Virus record (IMG/VR): IMGVR_UViG_3300048548_000571
Coordinates: 1 to 60,552 of that record
Source of the DNA: a virus
Lineage: Duplodnaviria > Caudoviricetes
Length of the DNA: 60,552 nucleotides
Reading direction: 5' to 3' (one strand)
The first letter of the stretch is position 1. Each line of letters begins with the position of its first letter. Shown here in pieces: positions 30,774 to 55,405 of the stretch. The position numbers and the translations under genes are program-made. The notes under the pieces are model-generated. The model searched no databases, was not told the DNA's origin, and worked only from the letters and a program-made list of their open reading frames with translations.

Positions 30774-30847
30774 CTCCTCCACCTGGAATCGAACCAGGAA
30801 CCTATTGATTAACAGTCAACCGCTCTGCCTGATTGAGCTATAGAGGA
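30774..30847 (-). tRNA. trnN: tRNA-Asn(GTT)
   Basis: TCCTCTA TAGCTCAATCAGGCAGAGC GGTTGACT GTT AATCAA..GGTTCGATTCC..GGAGGAG cloverleaf; CCA not encoded. Confidence 0.93.
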
Positions 30848-30898
30848 ATGGGAGGGGGCGCTGTTTCTAAAATACAGATCTTTTGTACTCCCCCAAAG

Positions 30899-30971
30899 TG
30901 GAGAATAGGAGACTCGAACTCCTGACATCCTGCTTGCAAAGCAGGCGCTCTACCAGCTGAGCTAATTCCCC
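30899..30971 (-). tRNA. trnA: tRNA-Ala(TGC)
   Basis: GGGGAAT TAGCTCAGCTGGTAGAGC GCCTGCTT TGC AAGCAGG..GTTCGAGTC..ATTCTCCA; G3-U70 pair. Confidence 0.95.
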
Positions 30972-31561
30972 CCAGAACCGACTCGTTCAGTTTCGTCTAG
31001 ATAACTGAACCAACCAGTAATGATGTACTTATCTTCATTCGGAGCAACTTGTCCCTTATGAGTATAAGTCCAGTCTGATGGCCAGATAACTGTCTTACCT
31101 TTTTTAGGTTTGACAGTATAGTTCTGGTGCATAAAATCTGTACCACCACCCTCTTCAATATCATTAAGATATGTCATCCAGACTAGGTGTCTGTTGTTAT
31201 GAGGGTGCATTGCATTGCATCTTTCAGTATGCCACTTGTAAAAACCTTCACCAGGTTTGTACCACTGAATGTTAACAGATTCAGCAACTCCCCATGGAGA
31301 GTATACGTTACAAGTAGGATATTTGTCAATATATTTCTTCCCAACGTCGAATAAATGCTCTAGATATTCTTCGACAGGAGGAGCAAGATGCTTCTCAAAT
31401 GGATATATGGTAAGATCTGTAGACTTCTTGGCATCAGTGACACCAGTTGTAGTCTCTCCAGGATTTCTGCGATTTATTGAAAAATCCGAATTTTGAAAGA
31501 AGTCAATTAGCCTGTCGCAAACTGAAACATCTTTAATTTTCGCTTCTAAAATAAAATCCAT
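30962..31561 (-). CDS. 2OG-Fe(II) oxygenase between tRNA genes
   Basis: Start MDFILE (the track's longer N-terminus is tRNA-Leu sequence); GFYKWHTE, WMTYLNDIEEGGGTDF, WTYTHKG, KYIITGW. Confidence 0.88.
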   Translation of the reverse strand: MDFILEAKIKDVSVCDRLIDFFQNSDFSINRRNPGETTTGVTDAKKSTDLTIYPFEKHLAPPVEEYLEHLFDVGKKYIDKYPTCNVYSPWGVAESVNIQWYKPGEGFYKWHTERCNAMHPHNNRHLVWMTYLNDIEEGGGTDFMHQNYTVKPKKGKTVIWPSDWTYTHKGQVAPNEDKYIITGWFSYLDETERVGSGGN

Positions 31562-31572
31562 TATATCCTGAA

Positions 31573-31654
31573 TGTCGATGAGAGGACTTGAACCTCCACG
31601 GATAAATCCACTGGAACCTAAACCCAGCGCGTCTACCAATTCCGCCACATCGAC
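31573..31654 (-). tRNA. trnL: tRNA-Leu(TAG)
   Basis: GTCGATG TGGCGGAATTGGTAGACGC GCTGGGTT TAG GTTCCAG, long variable arm, GGTTCAAGTCC. Confidence 0.93.
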
Positions 31655-31658
31655 GGAG

Positions 31659-31731
31659 AGCCTGTTGACAGACTTGAACTGACGACCTACGCTTTACAAA
31701 AGCGTTGCTCTACCAGCTGAGCTAAACAGGC
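31659..31731 (-). tRNA. trnT: tRNA-Thr(TGT)
   Basis: GCCTGTT TAGCTCAGCTGGTAGAGC AACGCTTT TGT AAAGCGT..GTTCAAGTC..AACAGGCT. Confidence 0.93.
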
Positions 31732-32258
31732 ATGCGAGCAAATTCAAAGAAACCATAACGACTGCCCCAAATTTGCTTCTTGGTCCCCACGAGATAACCA
31801 CGATCTATTACATGATAATAGTCTTCACCAAGAATTGCTTCATTCTTGACATAAGTTTCACCATCTCTATGGGGAACAATGCAATCACAACCTTCAACAG
31901 ACCCGATATACTCGGATTTGTTTGGGTTGTATGATAGAATTGTATCACATGTACCCTTATGTGTCAAGCCCTCGTCGTATTTGATTTGATCGAGATTGAC
32001 ACATCCACGATACCGATTTTTGTCGAAATCGTAGTTTTTCATGCGAATCTTACCATTTTCTAGACATGCCTCAACAATAAACTGTCTATAGGGAGCATGC
32101 AACTGATAGTTGTATGCTTGTTCCCCATAAAACATATTGTCGGTCCCAGGCACCTTTTTGTGGTGCAAACGGACCATAGCAAACCTAGATGGATAAGAAA
32201 ATGCCTGAACTTTGTTTTCCCACGTTCCCTCAAACCATTCTATAAATTGTTCAATCAT
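31722..32258 (-). CDS. cpeT: CpeT/CpcT-type phycobiliprotein lyase
   Basis: Start MIEQF; F.G.W.NK.QAF..P..FA, YGEQAY...PYRQ, C.V, DRG....QIWGS..G.FEF. Confidence 0.88.
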   Translation of the reverse strand: MIEQFIEWFEGTWENKVQAFSYPSRFAMVRLHHKKVPGTDNMFYGEQAYNYQLHAPYRQFIVEACLENGKIRMKNYDFDKNRYRGCVNLDQIKYDEGLTHKGTCDTILSYNPNKSEYIGSVEGCDCIVPHRDGETYVKNEAILGEDYYHVIDRGYLVGTKKQIWGSRYGFFEFARMPV

Positions 32259-32517
32259 CTTTAGGTAATAGTTCAGGATTATCAACAGTGAGTTCAAACA
32301 TACAAGGATGACATTCTTCTGCCATAAGATATGAAGACCATTTGTATAGATCTTCATCATCCCAGTCTTGACCTTCCAACGCTTCGGTTTGAATCGCTGG
32401 ATGATCTTGGACGATCAGCGGAAGTTCGTCAAAGGTATATGGTATACCTTGGATGAAATACATGCGTACAACGGTGCCCATATAAAAGACATAGGACTGT
32501 GTTAGTGAGTATTTCAT
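32251..32517 (-). CDS. Conserved hypothetical cyanophage protein
   Basis: 88-aa ORF directly upstream of cpeT, with a late promoter. Confidence 0.7.
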   Translation of the reverse strand: MKYSLTQSYVFYMGTVVRMYFIQGIPYTFDELPLIVQDHPAIQTEALEGQDWDDEDLYKWSSYLMAEECHPCMFELTVDNPELLPKDD

Positions 32518-32522
32518 AACAT

Positions 32523-32550
32523 TTCCACTACATTTTATTTAGTAGTGGAA
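32523..32550 (-). promoter_or_regulatory. 9-bp hairpin containing late promoter CTAAATA and covering the RBS of the downstream gene
   Basis: TTCCACTAC-TAAATAAAAT-GTAGTGGAA, 5 nt before ATG 32517. Confidence 0.65.
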
Positions 32551-32633
32551 TAGGGCAAGCGAGACTTGAACTCGCACGAACTATGTTCTTCAGATTTTAA
32601 GTCTGATGTGTCTACCGATTCCACCACTGCCCC
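32551..32633 (-). tRNA. trnL: tRNA-Leu(TAA)
   Basis: GGGGCAG TGGTGGAATCGGTAGACAC ATCAGACT TAA AATCTGA, long variable arm, GTTCAAGTC; no intron. Confidence 0.92.
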
Positions 32634-54444: not shown

Positions 54445-54603
54445 TTATTGATTCACTTTCCAGCTGGACGTGCCTCGTGATTTTAGATAAACCATTTTGG
54501 CATATGTTATACCACGATAAGTCAAGAGTCTAAAGACTTTATCTGGATCGTGTTTAGCAGAATCATAGACTGGAAGATCATATTCAAATCTGATCTTCAG
54601 CAT
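54445..54603 (-). CDS. DUF4278-like small protein (52 aa, not in track)
   Basis: MLKIRFEYDLP...LLTYRGITYAK; YRGxxY motif. Confidence 0.62.
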   Translation of the reverse strand: MLKIRFEYDLPVYDSAKHDPDKVFRLLTYRGITYAKMVYLKSRGTSSWKVNQ

Positions 54604-54611
54604 CTTTCCCC

Positions 54612-54707
54612 CTACATCTTTTGTAGGAGGAGGATCTCACCGTAAAGTAATGCGATGAATGCTGCACAACCTAGGGATGTTACTCCAACTAATTGTAGTG
54701 CTTGCAT
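54612..54707 (-). CDS. 31-aa hydrophobic peptide (not in track)
   Basis: MQALQLVGVTSLGCAAFIALLYGEILLLQKM; fills the gap between neighbouring genes. Confidence 0.5.
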   Translation of the reverse strand: MQALQLVGVTSLGCAAFIALLYGEILLLQKM

Positions 54708-54712
54708 GTCGA

Positions 54713-54880
54713 TCACTTAACGTAGGTGCGACCGCGATAGCAGAATGTGCCATGAGCTTCCTTGCTTTCTACACAACGCTGATCGTACCCAACACCACGG
54801 TAAGAGGTGTGAGTGATTTGTGCGTCGTGAAGTGCCGCTGCCTTCTGGATCTGCTTCTTGATGAGAGTTAAGGTGTTCAT
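54713..54880 (-). CDS. DUF4278-like protein (55 aa, not in track)
   Basis: MNTLTLIKKQIQKAAALHDAQITHTSYRGVGYDQRCVESKEAHGTFCYRGRTYVK; two YRGxxY motifs; AGAGGA SD. Confidence 0.75.
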   Translation of the reverse strand: MNTLTLIKKQIQKAAALHDAQITHTSYRGVGYDQRCVESKEAHGTFCYRGRTYVK

Positions 54881-54915
54881 GAGTATGTCCTCTGAAGTTA
54901 GGGTGGTTTAATCCC

Positions 54916-55131
54916 CGTTCCTTCAGTCGTTTGCGTCCCAATCCAACCACCTATTCGTGATCAGACCAATACCAATCACATTCTGGGTTTGATTCCTTTA
55001 CGGTATCAACCAACTCGATCTTCAATACATCGTCGATGTATTTGTTTGCCCGAATCCTCAACATGATAGCATCGGTTTGCTGGCATGATAGAGTTGTATA
55101 CAGAAGTAATTCTGGTATCATGGGATGAACG
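54916..55131 (-). promoter_or_regulatory. Glutamine riboswitch-like aptamer 2 (glnA/Downstream-peptide class) with an ORF-sized P2 loop
   Basis: CGTTCA-TCCCA ... TGGGA-CGCAAA-CGACT-GAAG-GAACG; P1 CGTTC/GAACG. Confidence 0.75.
54951..55121 (-). CDS. 56-aa two-Cys protein nested in aptamer 2 (not in track)
   Basis: MIPELLLYTTLSCQQTDAIMLRIRANKYIDDVLKIELVDTVKESNPECDWYWSDHE; aligns with 55157-55357. Confidence 0.72.
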   Translation of the reverse strand: MIPELLLYTTLSCQQTDAIMLRIRANKYIDDVLKIELVDTVKESNPECDWYWSDHE

Positions 55132-55134
55132 CTC

Positions 55135-55367
55135 CGTTCCGCGACTTACTTGCGTCTTATGTATAAGATCCTTCGCACTGACCTTCCACTTTTGTCTTGA
55201 GATATCCAATTAAAGCCCACTTCGACCGTTGGTCTAGGTTGGGATCCATCTGAATTTCCACACGACGTTGGAGGAACCTTTCACATGACATGTGCCACCC
55301 GTAGGGGGAACCGTCTTGATGATGGGCAAGGGTCAATGCCAGTAGGATACTGATCATAAGATGAACG
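55135..55367 (-). promoter_or_regulatory. Glutamine riboswitch-like aptamer 1 with an ORF-sized P2 loop
   Basis: CGTTCA-TCTTATG ... CATAAGA-CGCAAGTA-AGTCG-CG-GAACG. Confidence 0.75.
55157..55357 (-). CDS. 66-aa two-Cys protein nested in aptamer 1
   Basis: Hydrophobic N-terminus, SC-x35-C; ATG and TAA lie in the two arms of P2. Confidence 0.75.
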   Translation of the reverse strand: MISILLALTLAHHQDGSPYGWHMSCERFLQRRVEIQMDPNLDQRSKWALIGYLKTKVEGQCEGSYT

Positions 55368-55375
55368 ATTGCTAT

Positions 55376-55405
55376 AGTATAGCACTACTATATAGCATTT
55401 GTCAA
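55376..55405 (-). promoter_or_regulatory. Sigma70-type promoter of the riboswitch transcript
   Basis: TTGACA-N18-TATACT, 8 nt before aptamer 1. Confidence 0.7.

What the first reader, a model, noticed from the sequence alone, without database searches (positions are those of the whole stretch)
54916..55367. Protein genes nested inside tandem glutamine-riboswitch aptamers
Seen (minus strand): two units of the form CGTTCA-[P2 5' arm]-[~180-190 nt]-[P2 3' arm]-CGCAA...GGAACG. Unit 1 has P2 TCTTATG/CATAAGA; its 5' arm contains the ATG and its 3' arm the TAA of a 66-aa ORF. Unit 2 has P2 TCCCA/TGGGA; a 56-aa ORF starts at the A of the 5' arm and fills the loop. Known: CGUUC/GAACG P1 with CGCAA/AGUA/GAA junction elements fits glnA/Downstream-peptide glutamine aptamers, which normally have short P2 hairpins. 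Inference: ligand-stabilised folding would loop out each gene and bury its start codon, while ribosomes on the nested ORFs would disrupt the aptamer. One RNA could then switch the nested genes off and the downstream gene on. I do not know of a description of this, but could not check the literature.
Basis: partly seen in the sequence, partly recalled or inferred. Interest (0 to 1): 0.95.

Follow-up and report, generated by a model that had tools for sequence, protein, structure and literature searches.

The report
Genes nested inside phage glutamine riboswitch
In this cyanophage, two small protein genes sit inside hairpin loops of a glutamine-sensing RNA switch, a layout shared by hundreds of related phages that hides the switch from standard searches.

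Summary
The same conserved RNA segments occur in 283 GenBank cyanophage records and in two sets of at least 119 and 120 IMG/VR contigs.

Orthologous loci exist with and without an ORF in each P2 loop. Four of the 7 ORF-free loci tested pass Rfam's glutamine riboswitch cut-off (RF01739, 35.6-46.8 bits). The window itself gives no hit.

The P2 closing pairs covary across the 150-230 nt ORFs. The ORFs are real genes (dN/dS 0.17-0.30). They are paralogous two-Cys helix-hairpin proteins of unknown function.

The RNA is not two side-by-side aptamers but one interleaved fold. An outer Gln-I-type aptamer pairs the first CGUUC with the last GAACG. Its P3 stem (AGUCG/CGACU) carries an inner, permuted aptamer-like junction.

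Downstream lies a DUF4278/IF17-like gene. Reciprocal glutamine control of the nested genes and this downstream gene is plausible but only inferred.

The parts
55376..55405 (-). Sigma-70-like promoter, TTGACA-18 nt-TATACT with TG before the -10. The -10 ends 8 nt before the first C of the aptamer, so the transcript probably starts at the aptamer.
   Evidence: 11 of 12 consensus positions; a comparable -35/-10 pair in 114 of 139 distinct loci, with the -10 ending 7-9 nt before CGTTCA in 104 of them. RNA-library contigs from 3 studies end at 55336-55355 (weak hint only).
55362..55367 (-). CGUUCA(1): 5' strand of the outer P1 (CGUUC), plus A.
   Evidence: Pairs with GAACG at 54920-54916 (pair probability 0.96 in the window). 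Invariant in all loci.
55355..55361 (-). P2(1) 5' arm UCUUAUG. It contains the ORF1 start codon.
   Evidence: pair 3: C-G in 19, U-A in 15, U-G in 1 of 35 ORF-bearing loci.
55157..55357 (-). Nested gene 1: a 66-aa two-Cys protein (phrog_6471). It fills the P2(1) loop.
   Evidence: E 2.8e-41; dN/dS 0.165; 79 of 80 relatives flanked by both RNA halves; pLDDT 80.7, helix-loop-helix between the Cys residues.
55155..55161 (-). P2(1) 3' arm CAUAAGA. It contains the ORF1 stop codon UAA.
   Evidence: (the stop ends 2 nt before the core in 31 of 38 ORF1 loci).
55142..55154 (-). Junction CGCAAGUA (pocket CGC and the AGUA half of loop E), then AGUCG, the 5' strand of P3.
   Evidence: aligned to RF01739 J2/3 and P3. 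(ACGCAAGTA in 148 and ACGGAAGTA in 7 of 155 loci). (P3 covariation).
55126..55140 (-). Inner hairpin: GGAACG(1), GAG loop, CGUUCA(2). In this class of loci the loop plus the preceding G spell GGAG, 10 nt before the ORF2 AUG.
   Evidence: GAACG/CGTTC in 152 and CAACG/CGTTG in 3 of 155 loci, none one-sided. (pair probability 0.83 in the window). (GAG loop in 121 of 124 ORF2-bearing loci against 1 of 15 compact loci).
55121..55125 (-). P2(2) 5' arm UCCCA. Its last A is the A of the ORF2 AUG.
   Evidence: pair 1: U-A in 91, C-G in 6; pair 4: C-G in 74, U-A in 17, U-G in 4, other in 1, of 97.
54951..55121 (-). Nested gene 2: a 56-aa two-Cys protein (phrog_504), paralogous to gene 1.
   Evidence: E 5.9e-25; dN/dS 0.22-0.30; hhalign probability 91.6%, E 8e-7; pLDDT 82.4.
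54936..54940 (-). P2(2) 3' arm UGGGA.
54915..54935 (-). CGCAAA (inner pocket CGC), then CGACU (P3 3' strand), GAAG (the GAA half of loop E), GAACG (outer P1 3' strand), and G54915, the partner of C55152 in the long-range pair.
   Evidence: (C/G in 148 and G/C in 7 of 155 loci, no mismatch). (C/G in 50 and G/C in 32 of 82 loci, no mismatch)..
54713..54893 (-). AGAGGA Shine-Dalgarno-like site (54893-54888) and the regulated gene (54880-54713): a 55-aa protein with two YRG motifs, DUF4278/IF17-like (phrog_545).
   Evidence: PF14105, E 4.8e-4, 20.9 bits, below the 25.3 cut-off. (E 3.8e-34). (142 of 144 distinct downstream proteins have at least 2 YRG motifs). (9 of 10 relatives hit PF14105, one above the cut-off).

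Best explanation
This is the 5' part of an early phage mRNA, and it is one interleaved double glutamine aptamer.

Anatomy:
- The outer domain is a Gln-I (glnA-type) three-way junction.
  - P1 pairs CGUUC at the 5' end of the transcript with GAACG about 450 nt downstream.
  - It also has P2(1), the junction CGCAAGUA, and a P3 stem AGUCG/CGACU.
  - The AGUA and GAA halves of loop E, and the long-range C:G pair, complete it.
- P3 is capped by an inner, circularly permuted aptamer-like junction.
  - It contains the hairpin GAACG-GAG-CGUUC, P2(2) and a second CGC...GGAACG-G pocket signature.
- Each P2 loop has been colonised by a cassette that encodes a small two-Cys helix-hairpin protein.
  - The start codon lies directly after the four conserved P2 pairs.
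  - The stop codon lies in the P2 3' arm or, in most phages, inside the aptamer core.
- Downstream lies a DUF4278 (IF17-like) gene, the usual target of glutamine riboswitches.

Proposed mechanism (inferred): folding and translation of the nested genes exclude each other.
- When ribosomes occupy ORF1 or ORF2, the long-range helices cannot form.
- When the RNA folds and glutamine locks P1 and the long-range pairs, both nested start sites are buried. In this class of loci that includes the GGAG in the inner hairpin loop.
- The DUF4278 start site is then freed (ON), as shown for cellular glutamine riboswitches.

My odds:
- Anatomy and nested real genes: 0.9.
- Interleaved topology: 0.85.
- The outer domain binds glutamine: 0.75.
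- Reciprocal control of the nested genes against the downstream gene: about 0.4.
For: Family identity:
- The compact orthologues score 46.8, 43.6, 42.9 and 35.6 bits on RF01739 (cut-off 35). Each is one hit spanning both units.
- S-SM2 unit 1 alone scores 28.5 bits on RF01739 and 29.8 bits on RF01704.

Nesting:
- All four states of the two P2 loops occur at the same site, among 155 distinct loci.
  - ORF in both loops: 79.
  - Compact P2(1) with an ORF in P2(2): 59.
  - Both compact: 15.
  - ORF in P2(1) with compact P2(2): 2.
- In unit 2 the ATG is at offset 10 in 100 of 105 loci. The stop falls inside the core in 97 of 105.

P2 covariation across the ORFs. The cross-unit control shows none (0.772 observed against 0.781 shuffled).

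Coding:
- dN/dS is 0.165-0.30, and the third codon position varies most.
- The two families are paralogous.

Topology:
- The inner hairpin shows a double change in 3 loci and no one-sided change.
- The long-range pair is C:G in 198 loci and G:C in 39, with none mismatched. Under the tandem parse these pairs are only 50% paired (against 100%).
- P3 shows double changes: U-A to G-C in 3 loci and G-C to A-U in 2.
- The RNAalifold consensus is the interleaved fold.
- The MFE structure of the 459-nt window RNA is the interleaved fold, with z = -2.62.
- Across 61 ORF-bearing loci, mean pair probabilities are P1-outer 0.95, P2(1) 0.69, P2(2) 0.84 and inner hairpin 0.73. The tandem P1 helices reach 0.02 and 0.01.

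Expression signals: a promoter directly upstream, and the region is present in metatranscriptome contigs from 3 studies.

Direction of the switch:
- Klahn 2018 (PMC6212724) and Huang 2019 (PMC6698751), passages read, report ON switches for DUF4278/IF17 genes.
- In a crude model, forcing the outer P1 raises accessibility of the downstream start site in 21 of 36 loci and lowers it in 2. The mean rises from 0.49 to 0.57.
Against: - The window itself gives no glutamine-riboswitch hit. There is nothing at the gathering score, nothing at E up to 10, and only a 12.1-bit fragment.
- There are no ligand-binding, structure-probing or translation data.
- The helices that matter for topology are almost invariant, so support rests on a few substitution types that may each be a single event. 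The shuffle controls ignore phylogeny.
- In the pair-probability model P3 is weak (mean 0.27; 0.34 in the window).
- P3 has two C.A mismatches in the second core class.
- The compact L011 RNA folded alone does not give the interleaved MFE, and its z-score is -1.41.
- The GAG-loop/GGAG link to ORF2 holds only in core class 1. In class 2 just 1 of 68 ORF-bearing loci has GAG.
- Closing a 170-200 nt loop with 4-7 base pairs is costly, and ribosomes can load before the 3' half is made.
- Free-standing homologues of the nested protein exist without any aptamer flanks (L226-L228). The genes therefore do not need the RNA.
- The modelled effect on the downstream start site is small.
- RNA-library contigs cannot exclude contaminating DNA.
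Confidence: 0.5

Rival explanations
1. Passive cassette site. The P2 loops are simply places where insertions do not harm the aptamer. The invariant riboswitch segments act as recombination anchors for swapping small-gene cassettes. The nested genes are made constitutively from the early promoter, and glutamine controls only the DUF4278 gene once ribosomes have cleared.
For: - Many unrelated-looking alleles of the nested protein occupy the same slot between invariant flanks.
- ORF-free and ORF-bearing forms coexist.
- Free-standing homologues exist.
- A homing-endonuclease gene has also landed inside the element.
- The GGAG-loop link is absent in class 2.
Against: - The start codon sits at a fixed register inside the P2 arm, and stop codons lie inside the arm or core.
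- 79 of 80 ORF1 relatives are nested.
- With the AUG inside P2 and 4 nt from P1, folding is hard to separate from initiation.
- The GAG loop tracks ORF2 in class 1.
Confidence: 0.3
2. One reading: two independent aptamers side by side, each closing its own P1 around its own gene.
For: - Both units have the CGUUCA...CGCAA...GGAACG order.
- Each compact unit alone scores 26-34 bits on RF01739 or RF01704.
- In class 2 both units carry the same AGCCGACU segment.
Against: - The double change CAACG/CGUUG would break both P1 helices.
- The long-range pair would be mismatched in 39 of 237 loci.
- The AGUA and GAA halves of loop E sit in different units.
- Only the spanning alignment passes the Rfam cut-off.
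- The tandem P1 helices have pair probabilities of 0.02 and 0.01.
Confidence: 0.07
3. In ORF-bearing loci the aptamer no longer senses anything. The conserved segments persist as translation signals, RNA-processing sites, recombination sites or homing sites.
For: - There is no CM hit in the window.
- A homing-endonuclease gene targets the invariant junction.
- No binding data exist.
Against: - The core is letter-for-letter the same in compact and ORF-bearing loci, although the ORFs have diverged to dS above 1.
- Long-range P2 pairs are kept by compensatory change only within a unit.
- All pocket positions and both long-range pairs are retained.
Confidence: 0.08
4. Chance motif matches around ORFs that are not genes.
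For: None beyond the shortness of the motifs.
Confidence: 0.01

Closest known systems
Glutamine-I riboswitch (glnA RNA motif, Rfam RF01739) in front of gifB/DUF4278 genes of cyanobacteria (Klahn 2018, PMC6212724; Huang 2019, PMC6698751; passages read)
   Same: - P1 CGUUC/GAACG, a P2 hairpin, the CG(G/C)AAGUA junction, P3, GAAG, and the long-range pair.
- A DUF4278 gene downstream.
- Compact phage orthologues pass the family cut-off.
   Different: - P2 carries a 200-nt protein gene.
- P3 carries a whole second aptamer-like junction with another gene.
- The pocket triplet is CGC with a G partner, as in Gln-II, in most loci.
- The window itself is invisible to the model.
Tandem or triple glnA aptamers (Weinberg 2010, PMC2864571, section read; a 2023 review, PMC10265488, passage read, citing Ames and Breaker 2011, which is not held)
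   Same: Two sets of aptamer core sequence in one leader.
   Different: The strands here are interleaved, not side by side. The units share one P3 helix. The inner unit is circularly permuted and lacks loop E. I could not read Ames and Breaker 2011 to see whether such an arrangement is drawn there.
Glutamine-II riboswitch (Downstream-peptide motif, RF01704)
   Same: The CGUUCA-hairpin-CGCA...GGAACGG signature, a C:G long-range pair, no loop E in the inner unit, and marine picocyanobacterial DUF4278 targets.
   Different: - No pseudoknot is needed. The inner P1 is a plain hairpin.
- Scores stay below the cut-off of 33 bits (25.7-32.1).
Group I and II introns that carry endonuclease or maturase ORFs in peripheral loops (recalled knowledge, not tested here)
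   Same: A conserved RNA fold whose peripheral hairpin loop houses a protein gene, with closing pairs kept across the ORF and ORF presence or absence varying among relatives.
   Different: - This is a ligand-sensing aptamer, not a ribozyme.
- The ORFs encode 50-75 aa two-Cys proteins, not mobility enzymes.
- The start codon is part of the helix.
Leader ORFs inside Mg2+-responsive mgtA/mgtCBR leaders (mgtL and similar; recalled knowledge)
   Same: Translation of an ORF embedded in a sensing leader competes with alternative RNA structures.
   Different: Those are short regulatory peptides without conserved protein function. Here the ORFs are conserved proteins under purifying selection, placed inside the aptamer itself.

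Membership tests
Glutamine-I riboswitch (RF01739) | Covariance-model score at or above the gathering score (35 bits) | tested here: not met
   Window: no hit at the gathering score, none at E up to 10, and a 12.1-bit fragment only. Natural ORF-free orthologues: 4 of 7 loci pass (46.8, 43.6, 42.9, 35.6 bits); the other three score 34.3, 34.1 and 30.1. The failure in the window comes from the 200-nt inserts, not the core.
Glutamine-I riboswitch (RF01739) | P1 CGUUC/GAACG enclosing the junction | tested here: met
   55367-55363 pairs with 54920-54916. The helix is invariant. It is in the MFE structure in 58 of 61 loci, with mean pair probability 0.95.
Glutamine-I riboswitch (RF01739) | P2 helix next to P1, supported by covariation | tested here: met
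   Met for both the compact and the ORF-bearing forms.
Glutamine-I riboswitch (RF01739) | P3 helix flanked by the AGUA and GAA halves of loop E | tested here: met
   AGUCG/CGACU is flanked by AAGUA and GAAG. Double changes in P3 occur in 5 of 82 class-2 loci. That AGUA/GAA is the loop-E signature is recalled. Huang 2019 (passage read) states only that glnA has a loop E motif.
Glutamine-I riboswitch (RF01739) | Long-range base pair closing the ligand pocket | tested here: met
   C:G in 198 loci and G:C in 39, none mismatched out of 237. 18 of 18 paired. The pair is described in Huang 2019 (passages read).
Glutamine-I riboswitch (RF01739) | Selective binding of L-glutamine | not testable with these tools
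   Needs in-line probing or ITC.
Glutamine-II riboswitch (RF01704) | Score of at least 33 bits, and a pseudoknot between CGUUC and a GGAACG hairpin loop | tested here: not met
   The best scores are 32.1 and 29.8 bits. The inner P1 is a simple hairpin.
Side-by-side tandem riboswitch | Each aptamer closes on itself | tested here: not met
   the within-unit long-range pairs are only 50% paired; pair probabilities 0.02 and 0.01.
DUF4278 (PF14105), downstream protein | Pfam score at or above 25.3 bits | tested here: inconclusive
   Window protein: 20.9 bits, E 4.8e-4. Nine of 10 relatives hit at E of 0.004 or better, one above the cut-off at 32.3 bits. Two YRG motifs occur in 142 of 144 distinct proteins.

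The most novel reading that the evidence does not exclude
A single RNA fold works as a three-gene, two-way translational switch that also reads ribosome traffic. Glutamine locks an interleaved double aptamer whose helices span two translated genes. This shuts both nested small-protein genes and opens the IF17-like gene. Ribosomes on the nested genes in turn hold the sensor open. The phage would thus combine the host's nitrogen status with its translational capacity in one leader.
Probability: 0.35. Interest if true: 0.92.

Novelty: new variant of a known kind. Interest (0 to 1): 0.8.

Why it matters
**Census.** A 2017 survey found only two glutamine aptamers in two cyanophage genomes and concluded that phages rarely use riboswitches (McCown 2017, PMC5473149, passage read). 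Here the element's junction is present in 283 GenBank cyanophage records, none with an annotated feature under it. It is also present in more than 239 IMG/VR contigs. Model searches miss it because genes interrupt the hairpins.

**RNA biology.** An aptamer can keep its fold with 150-230 nt protein genes inside two of its stems. Two ligand-pocket signatures can share one helix in an interleaved topology. In the text I could search, I found no description of either point.

**Phage-host biology.** The element links a phage IF17-like gene, a possible regulator of host glutamine synthetase, and a large family of unknown two-Cys mini-proteins to a glutamine signal. That makes phage sensing of host nitrogen status directly testable.

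Tried and rejected
**Loop deletion in silico.** Natural loop-free orthologues served instead.

**Custom covariance model.** I did not build one. A hit spanning 450 nt would exceed any model's window.

**Protein function.**
- Pfam gave nothing for either nested protein.
- The PDB fold search gave no match better than E 2.9.
- BFVD returned only uncharacterised cyanophage proteins.
- The Atlas returned only viral hypothetical clusters.
- A homologue search returned only unnamed or hypothetical phage proteins.
- The profile search found 305 cluster representatives and no named relatives.

**Host copies.** One scan of genome contigs gave 9 hits. Eight are on MAG contigs and one on a Nonlabens isolate assembly contig. 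The largest is a contig of 193,981 bases labelled Synechococcus. I suspect, but did not check, that they are mis-binned phage DNA. This gives no evidence for or against a cellular version.

**Other copies in the window.** None was found.

**RNA evidence.**
- Contigs from four RNA runs in three studies cover 54500-55355.
- Nothing covers 55356-55387 except a trace (depth 0.27) in one run.
- I laid no DNA run beside them, so this is only a weak hint of a transcript start.
- The skips of 174-190 nt in those contigs come from related phages with other cassettes.

**Other tests.**
- The idea that the intergenic junction alone forms a permuted aptamer using the unit-1 3' arm and the unit-2 5' arm is rejected. 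There is no covariation between them.
- Other ORFs preceded by CGTT[CG]A in the loci were chance matches inside other genes.
- The large ORF upstream of unit 2 in L037 gave no Pfam hit.

**Literature.**
- Searches found no paper describing genes inside a glutamine aptamer.
- Ames and Breaker 2011 and Ren 2015 are not held.
- Supplements are closed. The additional files of Weinberg 2010 may show such inserts.
Full report
**What the window is.** The window is a 60.5-kb fragment of a T4-like cyanomyovirus. CheckV puts its completeness at 31%. Its closest isolate is Synechococcus phage S-CAM3, 84% identical over the locus. The locus lies between an RNase H gene and thyX.

**The observation.**
- CGTTCA at 55367-55362.
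- P2 arms TCTTATG and CATAAGA around a 66-aa ORF (55357-55157). The ATG is in the 5' arm and the TAA in the 3' arm.
- CGCAAGTA-AGTCG-C-GGAACG at 55154-55135, then GAG.
- CGTTCA at 55131-55126.
- P2 arms TCCCA and TGGGA around a 56-aa ORF (55121-54951).
- CGCAAA-CGACT-GAAG-GAACG at 54935-54916.

A strong sigma-70-like promoter (11 of 12 consensus positions, with TG before the -10) ends 8 nt upstream. A 55-aa gene with two YRG motifs follows at 54880-54713.

**Is it a glutamine riboswitch?** The window gives no Rfam hit other than five tRNAs. There is nothing even at E up to 10 over the locus.

Relatives settle the matter. The locus is conserved in 410 phage records. In S-SM2, unit 1 is a compact hairpin version that matches both glutamine families just below their cut-offs.

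I then collected two sets of loci:
- 119 IMG/VR contigs found through the unit-2 core;
- 80 contigs found through the ORF1 protein alone.

Each P2 can be a 12-32 nt hairpin or can hold an ORF, and all four combinations exist.

All seven loci with at least one compact unit matched RF01739. Four passed its gathering score, at 46.8, 43.6, 42.9 and 35.6 bits.

The downstream protein is DUF4278-like. The window protein is below the cut-off, but 9 of 10 relatives hit and one is above it. DUF4278 is the standard target of cyanobacterial glutamine riboswitches (PMC6212724, passages read).

**The nested ORFs are genes, and they fit the RNA exactly.**
- In unit 2 the ATG begins 10 nt after the C of CGTTCA in 100 of 105 loci.
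- In 97 of 105 loci the frame runs through the P2 3' arm and stops at a TGA inside the core. These proteins end in WDAND.
- In this window and S-CAM3, a short insertion ends ORF2 10 nt before the arm.
- In unit 1 the stop codon lies within the P2 3' arm in 31 of 38 loci.
- Substitutions peak at third codon positions, and median dN/dS is 0.165-0.30.
- The proteins belong to phrog_6471 and phrog_504.
- Each family has two invariant Cys residues. The families are homologous to each other (hhalign probability 91.6%).
- Both are predicted to be a helix-loop-helix clasped between the two Cys residues, after a hydrophobic N-terminus (pLDDT 82 and 81).
- No function could be assigned.
- Of 80 ORF1 relatives found without reference to the RNA, 79 have both RNA halves. 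The 80th is truncated.
- Free-standing relatives do exist, with no aptamer flanks: 3 loci, 2 of them distinct.

**P2 closes across the genes.**
- In 97 distinct ORF-bearing unit-2 sequences, pair 1 is U-A in 91 and C-G in 6.
- Pair 4 is C-G in 74, U-A in 17, U-G in 4 and unpaired in 1. No shuffle out of 500 reached the observed pairing or covariation.
- In 35 ORF-bearing unit-1 sequences, pair 3 is C-G in 19, U-A in 15 and U-G in 1.
- Pairing the unit-2 5' arm with the unit-1 3' arm shows no covariation: 0.772 observed against 0.781 shuffled.
- A second core class gives further arm variants around its ORFs.

**The topology is interleaved, not tandem.**

*Rfam.* The four hits above the cut-off each span both units. 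They align the first CGUUC with the last GAACG, and AGU...ACU as P3.

*P3.* AGUCG in unit 1 is complementary to CGACU in unit 2. The AGUA and GAA halves of loop E sit in different units.

*Long-range pocket pair.*
- This pair is C:G in Gln-II and has an equivalent in Gln-I (PMC6698751, passages read).
- It links unit 1's CG[C/G] to the base after the last GGAACG.
- In class 1 it is C/G in 148 loci and G/C in 7.
- In class 2 it is C/G in 50 and G/C in 32.
- No locus is mismatched.
- On 18 compact composites the interleaved assignment is 18 of 18 paired. The within-unit assignment is 9 of 18 for each unit.

*Inner hairpin.* Three loci with different cassettes carry CAACG together with CGUUG. This double change keeps the inner hairpin but would break both P1 helices of a tandem model. 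No one-sided change was seen in 155 loci.

*P3 covariation.*
- In class 2, P3 is AGCCGACU against AGCCGACU: six pairs plus two C.A mismatches.
- It shows two different double changes: U-A to G-C in 3 loci and G-C to A-U in 2.

*Folding.*
- RNAalifold on 13 compact composites returns the interleaved fold.
- The MFE structure of the 459-nt window RNA is the same fold. Its z-score is -2.62, and 1 of 100 shuffles folded as well.
- Over 61 ORF-bearing loci the outer P1 has mean pair probability 0.95. The two tandem P1 helices have 0.02 and 0.01.

*Points against the interleaved fold.*
- P3 has low probability: 0.27 on average and 0.34 in the window.
- L011 folded alone does not give this MFE.
- The informative substitutions are few and may be clonal.

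*The inner junction.* It is a hairpin, P2(2), CGC and the G after GGAACG. It keeps every pocket letter in 237 of 237 loci. I take it as a probable second, permuted ligand site, at about 60% odds.

**How it most likely works.**

Shown:
- The promoter places the transcript start at about the first aptamer base: 104 of 139 loci have the -10 ending 7-9 nt upstream.
- ORF1's AUG is about 10 nt from the 5' end and inside P2(1).
- ORF2's AUG is inside P2(2), 4 nt after the inner hairpin.
- In class 1 the hairpin loop reads GAG in 121 of 124 ORF2-bearing loci but in only 1 of 15 compact ones. With the preceding G this makes GGAG, and its second G is the inner long-range partner. The Fisher test gives 1.7e-15 but is not corrected for phylogeny.
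- In class 2 this link is absent: 1 of 68 ORF-bearing loci has GAG.

Inferred:
- Ribosomes on either ORF, and ribosomes terminating in the core, prevent the long-range helices from forming.
- The folded, glutamine-locked RNA hides both nested start sites.
- By analogy with the ON switches reported for DUF4278/IF17 genes (PMC6212724, PMC6698751), folding should release the downstream start site.
- A crude constraint model agrees, but only weakly: accessibility is 0.57 against 0.49, rising in 21 of 36 loci and falling in 2.

Main rival: the P2 loops are merely tolerant cassette sites, and glutamine controls only the downstream gene.

**Expression.** Contigs from metatranscriptomic libraries of three studies match 54500-55355 at 99% or better. 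They stop 12-31 nt short of the aptamer's first base. This fits the predicted transcript start but does not prove it.

**Known or new?**
- Glutamine riboswitches in T4-like cyanophages are known (PMC9964418, passages read).
- Tandem or triple glnA aptamers are known (PMC2864571; PMC10265488, passage read).
- The DUF4278 link is known.
- I found nothing on protein genes inside the aptamer, or on an interleaved topology, in eight full-text searches.
- Ames and Breaker 2011 and Ren 2015 could not be read. Supplements are closed.
- The 2017 census reported only two cyanophage glutamine aptamers (PMC5473149, passage read). The junction of this element is in 283 GenBank cyanophage records with no annotation under it.

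**Verdict.**
- The family assignment is supported.
- The tandem parse is replaced by an interleaved double aptamer.
- The nested genes are real.
- The regulation is inferred.
- I class the element as a new variant of a known kind, with high interest.

Noticed in passing
L224 (Synechococcus phage Sf-CH5) 535-1126; also L037 3-569, L065, and a remnant in L050 (about 590-535 on the minus strand): A gene annotated as a homing endonuclease is inserted inside the second CGTTCA of the element, duplicating CGTT. L050 keeps only about 60 nt of its 3' end. The invariant riboswitch junction may be a homing target. Pfam gave no hit for the L037 copy.
   Followed up: partly
L003 (Syn9) about 1023-1070; L004 (S-SM2) about 1012-1055; also L044, L060, L098: Some phages have a third element after the last GGAACG: ACGGAUC, a covarying GNRA hairpin, then AGAAGGUU. 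It resembles the 3' two-thirds of a Gln-I aptamer. It could pair with the GAAC of the outer P1 3' strand, which would make it a candidate expression platform. The window lacks it.
   Followed up: no
IMG/VR loci L225 and L229 onward: A second core class, with AGCCGACU in both P3 strands and proteins ending in DAKAD, occurs in at least 120 contigs. ORFs sit in P2(2) in 68 of 82 loci and in P2(1) in 41 of 82.
   Followed up: yes
L226-L228, 501-641: Homologues of the nested two-Cys protein (40-43% identity to P0161) stand alone, without any aptamer sequence, on other viral contigs.
   Followed up: partly
L090 440-676 and L060: Variants in which the arrangement is disturbed. In L090, ORF1 has lost its stop and reads through the junction (79 aa). 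In L060, a deletion fuses ORF1 to other sequence.
   Followed up: no
window 54941-54970 (minus strand): Compared with S-RIM2 and most phages, the window and S-CAM3 carry an insertion of about 30 nt. It ends ORF2 at TAG before the P2 3' arm, instead of at the TGA in the core.
   Followed up: partly
window 30774-32633 (minus strand): Five tRNA genes in a cluster.
   Followed up: no
L054 2684-2774 and 3805-4007; L011 1021-1116: PhotoRC-II RNA motifs and a group I intron lie a few kb from the riboswitch locus on related contigs.
   Followed up: no
L214-L222 (genome contigs): The junction occurs on contigs of MAGs labelled Synechococcus, Tabrizicola, Verrucomicrobiales, Bacteroidales and Euryarchaeota, and on one Nonlabens isolate assembly contig. 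One is a 193,981-base contig. They may be phage contigs binned with cellular genomes, but I did not check this.
   Followed up: no
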